This document shows positions 41,781 to 50,700 of a stretch of 64,000 nucleotides of DNA, in pieces; the first letter of the stretch is position 1; each line of letters opens with the position of its first letter. The position numbers were made by a program. Source of the stretch: Ylistrum balloti (lineage: Eukaryota). The DNA lies in assembly GCF_031769215.1 (NCBI RefSeq), contig NW_026782299.1:1798001-1862000 (forward strand), in the 5' to 3' direction.

Positions 41781-44700
41781 ATAAAAACTTGTCAACACAT
41801 TCATATAACTTTAAAACCGAGTGATTTAATATGGAATGTATAAATGTACATAGTCAATAACCCCGATAATTAACAGAATGGTTGTTTCCCGAATGACACA
41901 ATATTCCGTTAGGATGAATGAATGACAGAAAAGTAAATACAGCACACGATTGTAGTAACGGGAAAATAAATTTTGTTTAAACTCCCGGATGGCTACACAT
42001 TTAGGAATTACAAAGCATAAATTGTTCCAACGTTTCCTTTGATACGTTTAAAATAATAATTATCAACTCTTGTTTTCGGTATTCACTCCTACTTTACATA
42101 TGTCAATTGCTTATTGTGACGTCATGCATAATTTGCCTTCCATGACGTCATTTTTAGTGTCTTATTAAGCCTTCCATTAGATATGTTTGCTGGCGACTAG
42201 CCCCTGGGATTGACAAGGAGATTTAACGTAGCTGCAACAGCAGTCAGACCTTTTATATCTTTTACTCACTATATAATAACAGTTCTTATTCAAAAAGTTA
42301 AAACCATGTCAATTTCAAATCTACACGGCTTCCTATTTCTTCCATGACGTCACAATTCCTCGTGAAGATGAATCTTTGGTTTTTCCACCACATCTCTATC
42401 GTTTTCCTCTTCGTCTCCCTCGTCTGCGCTGACAATTGATGGCATTTTCCTCACGTACTCCTTCTTTGGTTTGATGTCCTGGACATGGACAAATTCAGAC
42501 TGGTATTTATTTTTCTTAAAAACAGCCTTACCGAGTTCATCCACCAACTGGTTGAGAATGTTCTTCCTTTTGGTGAAGTATTCCACAGTTTTCGGAAAGG
42601 TCACCTCTGTAAAGAAATAAATACTCACAGTTCATTTTTCAAGTTACACGATTGTAGATACAGGTCTAAAACATCGATTATTGCTTTATTTTTTGTTTTT
42701 TCGATTTTGTATATTTTATTTAATGGTGACATTCGGGTAAATAAGACTAACCGTCAGTATATGCAAGGGCCTTCAGAACTGCCATTCGTTCCTCGTCTAG
42801 CGTGTCCACTTTTCCGTGGTGTTCTACAAACTCCAGCAGATAGATATAATAATCAGCAAATCTAAAACAGACAGATATTATTGAACTGAAGCCGAATCAT
42901 GTTTTATTTTTTTTCAATACAGAACAAGTACATTTTGTCATCGTTGAACCAACACCAAGTTGTATTTCAACATGAAATACATAAGATGCTTCATGACTTT
43001 ATTCAAATTGTTCAAAGATGCAAATAACTGTAAAGAAAATTTCATTAACGTTTGAATATAATCAATTAAAAGATAAAATCGACAGAATATCATGTCGTGC
43101 TAAATCGGTCCCTTCGGCACCTTCCGTGTAAGAAACGACGCACGTCACATTTACGGAAAGTGACGAAGGTTCTCGATCCTTACAACGGAAACCAAATATG
43201 CTCTTATCTTGATAGGTTTAAATGATATTTTTAACACGTTTTTTTTCTTCAAATATTTCAAACCATTTCTGTCGATAAGATTAACCCACGTTTGATACAG
43301 AAATGCCGATATCCAAACCACCGTCGTTTATGTAGTCCGGAGGGGACATTTTGAGATAGTAGCATGTCAAGAGCCGATCAGCTATTTATAGATTGTCAAC
43401 GAATGCATCATTTATCTAGTGTTTTACCAAACATTTACTTTTTCATTACACGCACATTGATATTTGATTGACAGGACCATAAAGGTACTGACAAGTATTT
43501 AAACTGAAAAGTCATTCATTTGAAATTGAGCTTCATTTGTCATTTACTGCATACACGAGATGCAAAATGCACTGAAATATTTAAAATTGTAAGGTAAGAA
43601 TGCCGATATGATATATGTGACAACTGAGCAAGAAAACTAGAAGACAACTGGAAATTAGTCTAAACCTTCCCGCTTCAAATTCTCAGTCACAATCAACATC
43701 AATTTCAGGTTAATATTACATCAACATCGACTCATGTTTGTACCTTTCGCATAGATGATGATGTTCATCAATTCCATCGTGAGATATTCGCTGCGTGAAA
43801 GTGCAAAATTCATAGGAATCTTAAATATTAGACAAGAATGTCCGTTCTATGTACTATGGTACATCGCGCTTCGTCGCTGCTATATTGAATGTCCCCTCCG
43901 GACCAGGTAAACGGCAGTGGAAATCGTTACATCGAATTTCTTAGTAACATATAGGGTGGTTATTGTACGATATACTTACTCATTCATTTCGTATTTCTTG
44001 GCGATATCTTTAGCTGCTACCAGTAGTTCACTCTATAGAAGATAATTTCAGTATCAGTTATCGTTGTGGGCAATTTAACTATTTGGATAAGGAACAATAT
44101 ATAGCCAAACATCTACTACGTAAACAAATCAATTATCATTCCTTGTTTTGTAAATAACGAGGATATGAAAAAAATATCGTGAATGAAGTGAGAATTGAAT
44201 AATTTGATATTTCTCGAGCGTTTCAAAGTTAGTCTTTACATAAAACACAATTTCCATATTTAGATTTCAACGGAAAATACGCATTCGCTAGGCATGTGAC
44301 GTCATTATTAAGGATAAAGATTAAATATTTTAAATCAAATTGCCATAACAGTTTTTTTTGTGAAATACACAATCAATACTAGGTACAGCATGCGGCAAAA
44401 GCAAAAAATTTCGTGCATATTGATATATACTTGATATTTGATACAGGTCATATTATTCAGAAATGTGTTCCATTGTGAATATTTTTTTCAATAATGATTA
44501 ACACGAGGTGCCAGTCCCCTCCCCCTTCCAAAGCCCTTGCGTGCCGAGATTACCATCTGAGTGGCTTTCCTGATGACCTCGATGTTATCTGCGATGAGGT
44601 TATCGAAGTCAGAAATACGTCCTGCCTGAAAATATTCCATGTTATAAATGTTGACAAAAATGTTTCAGCAAGAGATTGTTTAAACGTTTTTTTATAAACG

Positions 44701-47700: not shown

Positions 47701-50700
47701 TAGAAGATGTGTGGCATGGTGAACGTACATAATATTGAACTTGTGAAACCGAATTTGCATACCCTACTTTTATGAGTCTATACATTTTAATCCAAATGTA
47801 CAGAATGTCTGATTCACTTACGAAGACAATGCATTGTAAGTAAAGATTTGGTACAAAATGTAACTTATTATTTTGTGTTCGAGTTAATGGATTACACAGT
47901 ATAAATACATATTGTCTATTAGTATACCTAATCTAGATAAGATTCGTATAACCCTTTTTACCAATTATTCACAACATATTTTACCGATATGAAACTATGC
48001 GGGAAAAACATATATGATAGCAGTGCAAAACTGTTGTTCCTCCCATAATGTACAATGTGGGTGTTGGAAATCCATCATTGTGATACTTACTTGATTTTGT
48101 GACTAACACCAACAAAAACTTCTTTTTATCCAATAACTGAAAACAAAAGATAAATAACTTAAAGAACTTACATCGTAAGGTATAAACCATACAAAATTAA
48201 CTGTATAAATGTTCGTAATACCTCGGCAAATTTCGTTTAAACTCGTAACCGAGTCTGCACGGAATTTCCCGAGATGACTTGATTGTGAATCAATCTATAT
48301 TATTTTGTATTGTTTACTTAACATTTTGATATTTTAGGAATACGATGAAGTCGGTGTAAATTGTTTTGCTTGCTACACACATGTACACAATACAATACTA
48401 CAGAGACAGTTGACAACAGCTGGGGCAGGCTTCAGTGTAAGACGTGTGAGTTAATTTTGGTCGATTTTACGCATCTGTCACCATCGCTACATCTTTTCTT
48501 ACTCACGAATTTTACTCTAATTCTAACTTCGTTACTCTGTGTAATGTTATAATTCATGTAAACCCGTTTAAAATCAGAGGTCTCCATTAACACCAAATCA
48601 TTAATTGCACAATGCTGCAAATATAAATGACAAATTCTTAATAAAAATACAGTTGTTTACATACCGAAAGGTTCCTAGATTTTACTATAATACATGTGTA
48701 TGTCTCTCGATAAACTTTATAAAGCTCACAATAAGGACAACTTCATTTTTATCTCTTCACATTAATTATGAATAATGATTAAATTACTAGTAATCAAACA
48801 AGATAAAAAGTTTGTACCATGTGATATCACACGGGAAACTGAAGACAGACAGGTGTATTTTGATAAGTTTTTGTCATGTAGTCTGTTTCAATCCCTCAAC
48901 CCTATCACGAATTCATCAACCATATCGAATCCATCAACCCTATATCGAATTCATCAACCCTATATCGAACCCATCAACCCTATATCGAATTCATCAACCC
49001 TATATCGAACCCATCAACCCTATATCGAATCCATCAACCCTATCTCGAATCCATCAACCCTATATCGAATCCATCAACCCTATCTCGAATCCATCAGCCC
49101 TATATCGAATCCATCAACCCTATATCGAACCCATCAACCCTATATCGAATCCATCAACCCTATATCGAATCCATCCACTTTTGATCATAGACTTTTTAGC
49201 TGGTAGACGTATTCCTTGTGTCACGTAAGCATGTAAATTGACTATTTCTATGAAACTCTTGTAAATCTTCAAACTAAAGGGTAAAGTTTTATAGTGTAAT
49301 CCATGCGTGAAAATATGAATAAATAAAATATCGTAACCAAAGACCCAAGTCCAATGAAATGAAACATTTACTGAATATAGACCAACTTACCGAGTGTATA
49401 TTTTTCTCCGTGATATTGAGAACATGTCCAGAAACCACACTAAGGAAACACACGAGTAGTAAACTGGTCAGTGTTATCTTGACCGGCTTCATTTTCTTTG
49501 TGATGAATGTTTGTATCACGTAAGTAAAATTAATACGTGTTTCAACAGTTCAATACTACCGAATCAATCTCTGGTGTTCATCTGTTCCTCCGAAAATTTT
49601 GCTAAAATATTTCCTTTCTCAGGTAAATTTTCTTCGAGAGCTGTATGTTACATGAATATGCCTTTTTTGTAGTAGTTTTAATATTTTACATTGATTTATT
49701 GGAGACACGTGTTTCGCATGGCACGTATACAACGCCGCCAGATGTTACCTACAACTTCCACGAGTGACCTCCCTTGTCCCGTTAATGATATAATTTGCTG
49801 TGCGAAAAAGGATCTTGAGCTTCGATTTTATACTTTCTTCACTTGAATGTCTTCAAATTCGTCCCGAGCGGTACGGTTCTTTTGTGATATATAACCACCT
49901 GATAACCTACATATATATACCAGTGGTTCATGGCCGCCATTCAGGCATTTCTGCGCTGTTTTATTATATTTATTGGAATTTTACAAAACATTTCTCGTTT
50001 ATTTGCAATCTCTATTTGTATAATGATATTTTCAAAGCCCTACATGTAAGTTGGAACAAAAATAATCAAAATTATAGTATTACGGTTACCAAATTACAAA
50101 TGTTTTCATTTTGTTTTACATATCAAACGTCATGTTCAAAATCTTCAGTAATCGAACTTTAGTTGTCTCATTTGTGGCCACACAAATTTCTATATACAGA
50201 AATTCTGATCAAGTCGTGTGTGATTCACGCACAAAATCAGAATACATGATAAATGTATTTAAAACAATATTCCCCTTCTGGAATCTGACTGATGTTAAGT
50301 ACGCTTTCTCATTTATCCACATAGTAAACAGTATTAGTCCTGAATCTGAAAAATCTGTCGAAGCTATTGGAAACAATAAGATTTTTAACATTTCGTTTAA
50401 AAAAACGCAAGTATTTTAAACACCAACTTGGTGATATTTCAGTTAAGTTTCCTCCTGTGCTGGCAAAAAAGGTACAAGTAGGTTTTAATTAATTTTTTTC
50501 TAATTATTGGATATGTTAACAACAATAACAAAAAAAAAAATCAATGTAAATTCAATTTTGTACATTTGTATTTCCATGGAAATTGTTACTTATTCAAGTC
50601 ACTAACAGACAAAAAACTGCTGTAAAACTTTCACAGAGTTTAACCTGTGTCAAGTTACTACGCGATTGAAAATGTGGCAGCAACCTTCAGCTGTCGCTGT

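What the first reader, a model, noticed from the sequence alone, without database searches (positions are those of the whole stretch)
42350..49492. Animal PDI with the Trx-Trx-D architecture typical of fungi, plants and amoebae
Seen: signal peptide, two Trx folds, the TG..R..DG.L...AG linker, an ERp29-type helical D domain, an acidic tail and HEEL. Established: the a-a'-D layout marks fungal TigA/ERp38, plant PDIL2-1 and Dictyostelium PDI-D, whereas vertebrate ERp29 and Drosophila Windbeutel have one Trx plus D. Inference: a retained ancestral PDI-D lineage in a spiralian, bearing on the origin of ERp29.
Basis: partly seen in the sequence, partly recalled or inferred. Interest (0 to 1): 0.65.

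Follow-up and report, generated by a model that had tools for sequence, protein, structure and literature searches.

The report
ER thioredoxin-fold gene with degenerate sites
This is a real 11-exon animal gene for an ER-resident protein with two thioredoxin-like domains and a helical tail, laid out like fungal and plant PDI-D enzymes, but its catalytic motifs are altered or spliced out, so it is probably not a standard disulfide isomerase.

Summary
The gene is real. It lies on the minus strand at 49492..42350, with 11 GT-AG exons in consistent phase and 416 codons. It has a signal-peptide-like N-terminus, an NIT sequon, the TG..R..DG.L...AG linker, an acidic tail and HEEL.

All searches were done exon by exon; the joined model was not searched. 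Exon 3 passes Pfam Thioredoxin (E=2.1e-5). Exon 7 looks thioredoxin-like by language-model features (0.93). Exons 10 and 11 fold as helices. No exon alone matches ERp29_C, ERp29 or Windbeutel, so the D-domain identity stays unproven.

Reading past the exon 4 donor gives SKWCIKC at the expected active-site position. WCxxC occurs 3 times in 127,996 codon positions. The second domain therefore probably descends from a catalytic domain whose active site is now spliced out, or is optional.

The Trx-Trx-helical layout is supported. "a-a'-D PDI" and "retained ancestral lineage" are not shown, because phylogeny and a survey across animals could not be run.

The parts
49391..49492 (-). Exon 1 (34 codons, phase 0 end). 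Start codon at 49492. Signal-peptide-like residues 1-22 (49492..49427). NIT sequon at 49417..49409. Start of Trx-like domain 1.
   Evidence: hydrophobic core, VSG before HV. No signal-peptide predictor was available.
48091..48136 (-). Exon 2 (15 codons plus 1 base): strand-like LLVLV then TKS. It lacks the usual buried acidic residue and the Trp before the active site.
   Evidence: Too short (under 20 aa) to scan alone.
46621..46789 (-). Exon 3. The split codon with exon 2 reads AAG (K). Then CTPC (46787..46776), helix, strand, and the FPT cis-Pro-type loop. This is the core of Trx domain 1.
   Evidence: Pfam Thioredoxin E=2.1e-5, 24.9 bits, profile positions 30-85 of 103. In the PDB, 37 of 38 matches are thioredoxins and 1 is a plant PDI-like 2-3 at E=1.2.
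46130..46299 (-). Exon 4: end of Trx domain 1, a short connector and the start of Trx-like domain 2 (ends ...AMILLYDN plus 1 base). One exon spans both domains.
   Evidence: No family or PDB relative when searched alone.
46038..46129 (-). First 92 bases of intron 4. In the exon 4 frame it stays open and reads SKWCIKC DPFNELVKKHFKLLNTKIIEFLL, then TGA. WCIKC lies at 46124..46110. Weaker GT donors in the same phase as the used one would end the exon at 46121 or 46112.
   Evidence: WCxxC occurs 3 times in 127,996 codon positions. The contiguous 58-aa stretch gets Thioredoxin_8 at E=0.081 (below cut-off) and a PDB thioredoxin at E=1.3 with WCxxC aligned.
45749..45810 (-). Exon 5 (20 whole codons). 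The split codon with exon 4 reads ACA (T). A helix-like NDDTFEKFKELARIF takes the place of the active-site loop and helix 2 of Trx-like domain 2. No cysteine.
   Evidence: No matches alone.
45199..45248 (-). Exon 6 (16 codons plus 2 bases): strand-like VSFLHFDV and the following turn of Trx-like domain 2.
   Evidence: Too short to scan alone.
44797..44956 (-). Exon 7: FPS cis-Pro-type loop, the last strands and helix of Trx-like domain 2 (to about 44842), then the linker RTGVSRSKDGSLPSK (44841..44797).
   Evidence: Atlas: thioredoxin clusters 0.93 and 0.91, recognition 3098; rank 14 at 0.81 is a fungal ERp29_C plus Thioredoxin cluster (lead only). PDB PDIA4 a-domain E=0.33.
44554..44625 (-). 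Exon 8 (24 codons): AG ending the linker motif, then the first segment of the C-terminal helical region.
   Evidence: No family or relevant PDB match alone.
43980..44032 (-). Exon 9 (17 codons plus 2 bases): second segment of the C-terminal region.
   Evidence: Too short to scan alone.
42752..42861 (-). Exon 10 (36 whole codons): predicted helix-loop-helix (helices at residues 2-15 and 23-33).
   Evidence: AlphaFold2 single sequence, mean pLDDT 86. No Pfam or PDB relative alone. The fold search was unspecific.
42350..42606 (-). Exon 11: long helix (residues 4-32, to about 42509), then a low-confidence basic and acidic tail, HEEL (42364..42353) and the TGA stop (42352..42350).
   Evidence: AlphaFold2 single sequence, pLDDT 75-95 over the helix and 53-64 after it. 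11 D/E in the last 30 residues. HEEL fits the Prosite ER motif and sits on an ER-located human protein.

Best explanation
The locus encodes a 416-residue soluble protein of the ER lumen. It belongs to the PDI superfamily and is laid out like the PDI-D group: Trx-like domain, Trx-like domain, conserved linker, helical C-terminal region, acidic tail, HEEL retrieval signal. Its redox equipment is degenerate. Domain 1 keeps a dithiol, but as a thioredoxin-style CTPC, without the preceding Trp and without the buried acidic residue. Domain 2 has lost its active-site loop, because a consensus GTAAGT donor splices it out, and the former WCxxC is still readable just inside intron 4. Shown: the gene structure, the ER targeting and retrieval features, Trx fold 1, CTPC as the only cysteine pair, the helical character of exons 10 and 11, and the intronic WCIKC. 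Inferred: it works mainly as a redox-poor chaperone or escort factor in the manner of ERp29/Windbeutel, or at most as a single-site reductase-type enzyme (CxPC motifs favour reduction; recalled). Also inferred: the helical region docks it to other ER folding factors, as the ERp29 D domain docks to the calnexin/calreticulin P-domain.
For: Gene model: 11 exons, all AG/GT, phases consistent, 1251 nt. Exon GC 0.436 against intron GC 0.351. ER features: hydrophobic N-terminus, NIT sequon, HEEL. Trx 1: Pfam Thioredoxin above cut-off on exon 3 alone, with CTPC aligned on the profile's active-site region, and CTPC aligned on CGPC of thioredoxins. Trx 2: exon 7 by features, 0.93 and 0.91, with all ten best family-bearing hits sharing a family or clan, and PDIA4 a-domain at E=0.33 in the cis-Pro register. 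Former active site: SKWCIKC in frame directly after exon 4; WCxxC is found at 3 of 127,996 codon positions; weak thioredoxin-type matches appear only when the intronic stretch is included. Helical C-terminus. The linker motif is present. The Atlas lead to a fungal ERp29_C plus Thioredoxin cluster ranks 14 at 0.81. A non-canonical active site in an a-a'-D protein has a precedent in K. phaffii Erp41.
Against: No exon alone matches ERp29_C or ERp29_N (0 of 8 scanned), and none finds ERp29 or Windbeutel in the PDB (0 of 7 queries). The Atlas gave nothing for exon 11. The Atlas ERp29_C lead scores below 0.9 and sits beside a PDIA6-like lead at 0.78. Exon 3's relatives are 37 of 38 thioredoxins and only 1 of 38 a PDI-family protein, so even domain 1 does not look specifically PDI-D. 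BLASTP sees no similarity between the two Trx-like halves. The thioredoxin-type matches of the read-through stretch are below significance (E=0.081 and 1.3). The folds are single-sequence predictions of fragments. There is no expression or junction evidence. The joined model was not searched.
Confidence: 0.55

Rival explanations
1. One reading: a catalytically standard a-a'-D protein disulfide isomerase, an orthologue of ERp38/TigA, PDIL2-1 and Dd-PDI kept unchanged in an animal.
For: Layout, linker motif and HEEL. The literature passages describe exactly this layout in fungi, plants and amoebae. An Atlas lead points to a fungal ERp29_C plus Thioredoxin cluster.
Against: Described members carry CGHC, or CSHC and CGYC in Erp41, in both domains. 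Here domain 1 has CTPC and domain 2 has no cysteine, and the mature protein has only two cysteines. ERp29_C was not detected exon by exon.
Confidence: 0.1
2. A fast-evolving member of another animal PDI subfamily (for example P5/PDIA6-like, or a lineage-specific thioredoxin-domain protein). Its C-terminal helical region would not be homologous to the ERp29 D domain, and the resemblance to PDI-D would be superficial.
For: No ERp29_C signal in any exon. An Atlas lead to a PDIA6-like C-terminal cluster at 0.78. Exon 3 resembles generic thioredoxins. An acidic tail plus a KDEL-type signal is also typical of P5 (recalled).
Against: Exons 10 and 11 are predicted as helices only, with no strands as a Trx-like b domain would need. 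No Thioredoxin_6 or PDIA6_C Pfam match. The linker motif is the one I recall from PDI-D proteins (recalled, not tested).
Confidence: 0.2
3. An ERp29/Windbeutel orthologue (b-D) that has gained an extra N-terminal thioredoxin domain.
For: Domain 2 next to the helical region has no cysteine, like the ERp29 b domain. The xEEL ending resembles the KEEL that I recall for ERp29 and Windbeutel.
Against: No ERp29_N match for exons 4, 5 or 7. The WCIKC relic shows that domain 2 was probably catalytic until recently, which fits loss within an a-a'-D protein better than an old b domain. Exon 4 bridges both domains with no sign of a fusion seam.
Confidence: 0.1
4. A decaying or mis-modelled gene: a pseudogene, or exons that are not joined as proposed.
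For: Loss of catalytic motifs. An open but stop-terminated relic in intron 4. No transcript evidence available here.
Against: All 11 exons are open, all 20 splice sites are canonical, and the phases close to a 416-codon frame that ends in HEEL. Exon GC is raised against intron GC.
Confidence: 0.05

Closest known systems
Fungal ERp38/TigA, plant PDIL2-1 (AtPDI11, wheat PDIL4-1), Dictyostelium Dd-PDI, Entamoeba EhPDI (PDI-D beta, a-a'-D)
   Same: Signal peptide, two tandem thioredoxin-fold domains, a helical C-terminal region of about 100-120 residues, total size near 40 kDa. The linker motif between domain 2 and the helical region matches what I recall for these proteins. Layout as described.
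   Different: Those proteins carry CGHC in both domains. Here the motifs are CTPC and none. The ERp29_C match is not shown here. They are reported from fungi, plants and amoebae, and this window is animal-like.
Komagataella phaffii Erp41 (ERp38 family member with CSHC and CGYC)
   Same: It shows that a-a'-D proteins can carry unusual active-site motifs that change their chemistry.
   Different: Erp41 keeps two dithiol sites. Here only one is left, and it is thioredoxin-like (CxPC) rather than glutaredoxin-like.
ERp29 / Drosophila Windbeutel (PDI-D alpha, b-D)
   Same: ER-resident, with a redox-inactive Trx-like domain directly before a helical domain and an xEEL-type retrieval signal. The likely mode of action is chaperone or escort with partner docking through the helical domain.
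   Different: ERp29 has one Trx-like domain. No exon here matches ERp29_N, ERp29_C or the solved ERp29 and Windbeutel chains.
P5 / PDIA6 (a0-a-b)
   Same: Two N-terminal Trx domains in tandem, an acidic C-terminal tail and a KDEL-type signal (recalled). An Atlas lead at 0.78.
   Different: PDIA6 has CGHC twice and a Trx-like b domain. Here exons 10 and 11 are predicted as helices only.
Classical thioredoxins (CGPC)
   Same: They are the best sequence relatives of exon 3, with CTPC aligned on CGPC.
   Different: Thioredoxins are single-domain proteins of about 105 residues without a signal peptide or ER retrieval signal.

Membership tests
PDI-D beta (ERp38/TigA/PDIL2-1/Dd-PDI; a-a'-D) | N-terminal signal peptide, ER lumen | tested here: met
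   Basic start, hydrophobic core (Kyte-Doolittle up to 2.86), VSG before HV, NIT sequon, HEEL. No dedicated signal-peptide predictor was available.
PDI-D beta (ERp38/TigA/PDIL2-1/Dd-PDI; a-a'-D) | Two tandem thioredoxin-fold domains | tested here: inconclusive
   Domain 1 is met (Pfam Thioredoxin on exon 3). Domain 2 has only feature-based support (0.93) and a PDIA4 match at E=0.33. There is no Pfam hit for exons 4, 5 or 7.
PDI-D beta (ERp38/TigA/PDIL2-1/Dd-PDI; a-a'-D) | A CxHC-type catalytic motif in both domains | tested here: not met
   CTPC in exon 3 and no cysteine in exons 4-7. WCIKC exists only in the intron 4 read-through.
PDI-D beta (ERp38/TigA/PDIL2-1/Dd-PDI; a-a'-D) | C-terminal all-helical D domain (Pfam ERp29_C, PF07749) | tested here: inconclusive
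0 of 8 scanned exons match PF07749. Helices are predicted for exons 10 and 11. The pieces are 17-84 aa, so power is low.
PDI-D beta (ERp38/TigA/PDIL2-1/Dd-PDI; a-a'-D) | Groups with PDI-D beta proteins in a tree | not testable with these tools
ERp29 / Windbeutel (b-D) | A single redox-inactive Trx-like domain (ERp29_N) followed by the D domain | tested here: not met
   There are two Trx-like domains in one gene, bridged by exon 4. No ERp29_N match. No ERp29 or Windbeutel chain found in 7 exon queries.
P5 / PDIA6 (a0-a-b) | Two CGHC sites and a C-terminal Trx-like b domain | tested here: not met
   No CGHC. No Thioredoxin_6 or PDIA6_C match. Exons 10 and 11 are predicted helical. The only support is an Atlas lead at 0.78.
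ER-retained soluble proteins (KDEL-type) | C-terminal tetrapeptide fitting [KRHQSA]-[DENQ]-E-L | tested here: met
   HEEL at 42364..42353. The motif, and an ER-located human HEEL protein, are quoted from PMC2140024 (passages).

The most novel reading that the evidence does not exclude
The gene is a surviving animal branch of the two-domain PDI-D lineage caught midway towards the ERp29 condition. One catalytic site has been remodelled to CTPC. The other has been removed by a splice donor placed just before the WCxxC codons rather than by mutation. Choice among three in-phase donors (exon 4 ending at 46130, 46121 or 46112) could still switch domain 2 between a cysteine-free form and a single-cysteine CxxS form. 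That would be splicing-controlled redox capacity in an ER folding factor.
Probability: 0.15. Interest if true: 0.7.

Novelty: new variant of a known kind. Interest (0 to 1): 0.45.

Why it matters
PDI-D proteins with two catalytic domains are textbook for fungi, plants and amoebae, while animals are known for the single-domain, redox-inactive ERp29/Windbeutel. An animal gene with the two-domain layout whose catalytic sites are visibly decaying would be a concrete intermediate for how ERp29-type chaperones arose from isomerases. One site still has its motif readable inside an intron. The idea could be tested with a phylogeny, junction reads and a few standard assays. If the C-terminal region turns out not to be a D domain, the gene is just a divergent lineage-specific thioredoxin-domain ER protein of modest interest.

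Tried and rejected
1. Exon-wise Pfam, PDB and Atlas searches for the D domain found no ERp29_C, ERp29 or Windbeutel signal. I read this as low power, not as absence.
2. A fold search with the 36-residue exon 10 model gave 3 matches at E<=10 and none at E<=0.001, all unrelated helical proteins.
3. BLASTP of exon 7 against exons 3 and 4, to look for internal duplication, found no alignment.
4. tblastn of all 11 exon peptides against the window found no paralogue or second copy, only self-hits below E=0.3.
5. A candidate extra exon at 43790..43744, which by eye resembled the start of exon 10, was rejected. Its phases do not fit, it gave no tblastn similarity to exon 10 and no Pfam hit.
6. An ER-stress element scan (CCAAT-N9-CCACG, 1 mismatch) gave 1 match in the window, far from the gene, against 2.03 expected.
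7. I looked for a donor that would keep both cysteines of WCIKC and still reach exon 5, 6 or 7 in phase with a complete fold, and found none (and hand reading).
8. The other frames of intron 4 and the stop-to-stop ORFs around exons 6 and 7 gave no thioredoxin-type Pfam match.
9. A literature search for a CTPC motif in PDI-family proteins returned 3 papers, none on PDIs.
10. Monnat et al. 2000 (PMC15007) is not held.

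
Full report
**Scope and limits**

The joined spliced model was not searched, aligned or folded. The window contains no N. Its neighbours are animal-type genes.

**The gene**

The finding lies on the minus strand. Reading stop-to-stop frames and checking boundaries by script gives 11 exons:
- 49492..49391
- 48136..48091
- 46789..46621
- 46299..46130
- 45810..45749
- 45248..45199
- 44956..44797
- 44625..44554
- 44032..43980
- 42861..42752
- 42606..42350

Every intron begins with GT and ends with AG, and five donors are GTAAGT. The phases fit throughout, and the exons sum to 1251 nt, which is 416 codons plus TGA. 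Exon GC is 0.436 against 0.351 in the introns. Exon 4 is a single exon holding the end of the first thioredoxin-like domain and the start of the second, so the two domains belong to one gene.

**Targeting features**

- Exon 1 starts with a basic stretch, then a hydrophobic core (11-residue Kyte-Doolittle mean up to 2.86) and VSG before HV, followed by an NIT sequon.
- The protein ends in HEEL after a tail with 11 D/E in its last 30 residues.
- HEEL fits the Prosite ER motif [KRHQSA]-[DENQ]-E-L, and a human HEEL protein was found in the ER (PMC2140024, passages).

An ER-lumenal resident protein is the straightforward reading.

**First thioredoxin domain**

Exon 3 alone (55 aa) matches Pfam Thioredoxin at E=2.1e-5 and 24.9 bits (cut-off 23.5), over profile positions 30-85 of 103. 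Against PDB sequences it has 38 matches at E<=10. Of these, 37 are thioredoxins (natural, reconstructed or designed), the best at E=6.1e-5, with CTPC aligned on CGPC. Only 1 of 38 is a PDI-family protein, plant PDI-like 2-3 at E=1.2.

The active site differs from PDIs:
- Exon 2 ends TKS, the split codon is AAG (K), and exon 3 begins CTPC. The motif is therefore K-CTPC rather than W-CGHC.
- The strand before it reads LLVLV and has no buried acidic residue. That position is judged from my recollection of thioredoxin and PDI alignments.
- CTPC is the only cysteine pair of the mature protein.

**Second thioredoxin-like domain**

In the 11-exon model it has no cysteine. Exon 4 ends ...AMILLYDN, the split codon is ACA (T), and exon 5 begins NDDTFEKF. 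Evidence for a thioredoxin fold is indirect:
- Exon 7 (53 aa) scores 0.93 and 0.91 against thioredoxin clusters in the Atlas, with recognition 3098 and all ten best family-bearing hits in one family or clan.
- Its only PDB match is the PDIA4 a domain at E=0.33, aligned at the cis-proline loop.
- Against it, exons 4, 5 and 7 have no thioredoxin Pfam match, exons 4 and 5 have no relevant PDB match, and BLASTP sees no similarity of exon 7 to exons 3 or 4.

**A former active site inside intron 4**

Read past its GTAAGT donor, the exon 4 frame stays open for 30 more codons: SKWCIKC DPFNELVKKHFKLLNTKIIEFLL, then TGA. The W-C-x-x-C falls exactly where the domain 2 active site should follow its second strand.

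- WCxxC occurs at 3 of 127,996 six-frame codon positions in this window (mean 0.74 in 50 shuffles). One in frame within a few residues of the expected place has a chance of roughly 1 in 5,000 (my estimate from that rate).
- The contiguous 58-aa stretch including it gets Pfam Thioredoxin_8 at E=0.081 (13.7 bits, below the cut-off of 27).
- It also gets a PDB thioredoxin at E=1.3 with WCIKC aligned on WCPPC. Exon 4 alone gets neither.
- The rest of intron 4 in its other frames gives nothing.

Two weaker donors lie in the same phase as the one used. One would end the exon at 46121 (GTATAA). The other would end it at 46112 (GTGATC, similar to exon 8's GTAATC). By hand, the latter joined to exon 5 would keep W and the first cysteine and turn the second cysteine codon into serine, giving a CxxS site. 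I found no donor that keeps both cysteines and reaches a later exon in phase with a complete fold.

The simplest reading is that domain 2 descends from a catalytic domain whose active-site loop is now spliced out. An optional loop through alternative donors cannot be excluded without transcript data.

**Linker and C-terminal region**

Single-sequence AlphaFold2 gives helices at residues 2-15 and 23-33 for exon 10 (mean pLDDT 86). For exon 11 it gives one helix at residues 4-32 (pLDDT 75-95) followed by a low-confidence tail. That fits an all-helical domain and not a strand-containing Trx-like b domain. It also agrees with the ERp29 D domain description of a helix bundle with two extended C-terminal helices (PMC7687155, ERp29 section passages).

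Membership in ERp29_C is not shown:
- 0 of the 8 exons long enough to scan match PF07749 or ERp29_N (exons 2, 6 and 9 are under 20 aa).
- Exons 8, 10 and 11 find no ERp29 or Windbeutel chain at E<=10.
- The Atlas has no usable hit for exon 11.
- A fold search with the exon 10 hairpin is unspecific.
- The only pointer is an Atlas lead from exon 7: rank 14, score 0.81, a fungal cluster in which 98% of members carry ERp29_C and 37% carry Thioredoxin. It sits next to a PDIA6-like lead at 0.78. Both are below the 0.9 level that the tool treats as more than a lead.

The putative domain is cut into pieces of 24, 17, 36 and about 35 residues, so these negatives have little power. They do say that, if this is a D domain, it is a divergent one. 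By eye and from memory, the spacing of a YY...G...ER...L...NIL pattern in exons 10 and 11 resembles the D domain of ERp29 and plant PDIL2-1. I count that as a lead only.

**What the literature says**

Passages I read state that two catalytic thioredoxin domains plus a D (ERp29c) domain occur in the following:
- Dictyostelium, Aspergillus niger, Neurospora crassa and plants, 'but not in mammals', where ERp28/ERp29 is b-D (PMC3017771)
- fungal ERp38/TigA and K. phaffii Erp41, the latter with unusual CSHC and CGYC sites (PMC10938136, abstract and passages)
- Entamoeba EhPDI (PMC5757170, passage)
- Arabidopsis AtPDI11, with CGHC in both domains (PMC4030966, passages)

A C. elegans survey lists no ERp29 orthologue (PMC3415087, Table 3 passage). 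Keyword searches turned up no description of an animal protein with two Trx domains plus a D domain, and one search found no PDI-family CTPC site. These searches cover only the held library and cannot show absence. Supplements, for example the homology lists of the Erp41 paper, were closed, and Monnat et al. 2000 is not held.

**Context**

Other ORFs in the window match:
- PB1 and PDZ (2618..4934, plus strand), an arrangement I recall from Par-6
- Arrestin_N (11743..13908, plus strand)
- sperm microtubule inner protein 8 (30261..30683, plus strand), all

This supports an animal genome. No second copy of any exon lies in the window.

**Verdict**

The layout resembles PDI-D. The protein is not an a-a' enzyme in the catalytic sense, the D-domain identity is unproven under the exon-wise rule, and the evolutionary claim is untested. 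The most likely function is a redox-poor ER chaperone or escort factor, or a single-site CxPC oxidoreductase. I rate it a new variant of a known kind, of moderate interest. The intronic active-site relic is the most notable new detail.

Noticed in passing
window, 17 sites including 42117, 42143, 42345, 44297, 46368, 47050: The CRE-type palindrome TGACGTCA occurs 17 times against 1.0 expected (0 of 100 shuffles reach 17). Six copies lie in or beside the PDI-like gene, one of them overlapping its TGA stop. Elsewhere several come in pairs 17-33 bp apart. This could be a dispersed repeat or real CREB/ATF-type sites.
   Followed up: partly
window 2618..2962 and 4044..4934, plus strand: Two ORFs with a PB1 domain (E=6.9e-11) and a PDZ domain (E=9.3e-12). 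By recollection this arrangement, with a CRIB-like stretch between them, is that of the polarity protein Par-6.
   Followed up: partly
window 11743..12090, 13624..13908 and 18266..19075, plus strand: Arrestin_N matches (E=5.2e-8 and 4e-13), followed by a Ser/Thr/Pro-rich ORF ending with PPxY-like motifs. By eye this is an arrestin-domain-containing (ARRDC-type) gene.
   Followed up: partly
window 30261..30683, plus strand: An ORF matching sperm microtubule inner protein 8 (PF22574, E=1.9e-20).
   Followed up: no
window 45360..45558 (intron 5) and 48890..49175 (intron 1): Minisatellites inside the gene's introns: a 28-bp unit in 7.1 copies and a 20-bp unit in 14.4 copies.
   Followed up: no
window 25925..28429, 34661..35633, 36973..37533, 50916..53508, 55499..56953: Large tandem arrays with units of 47, 38, 57, 34, 51 and 30 bp, up to 49 copies. 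The 25925..28094 array gives a strong GC skew of 0.59.
   Followed up: no
window 47343..47620, plus strand, inside intron 2: ORFs that by eye resemble the C-terminal part of a Tc1/mariner-type transposase, but Pfam gave no match.
   Followed up: partly
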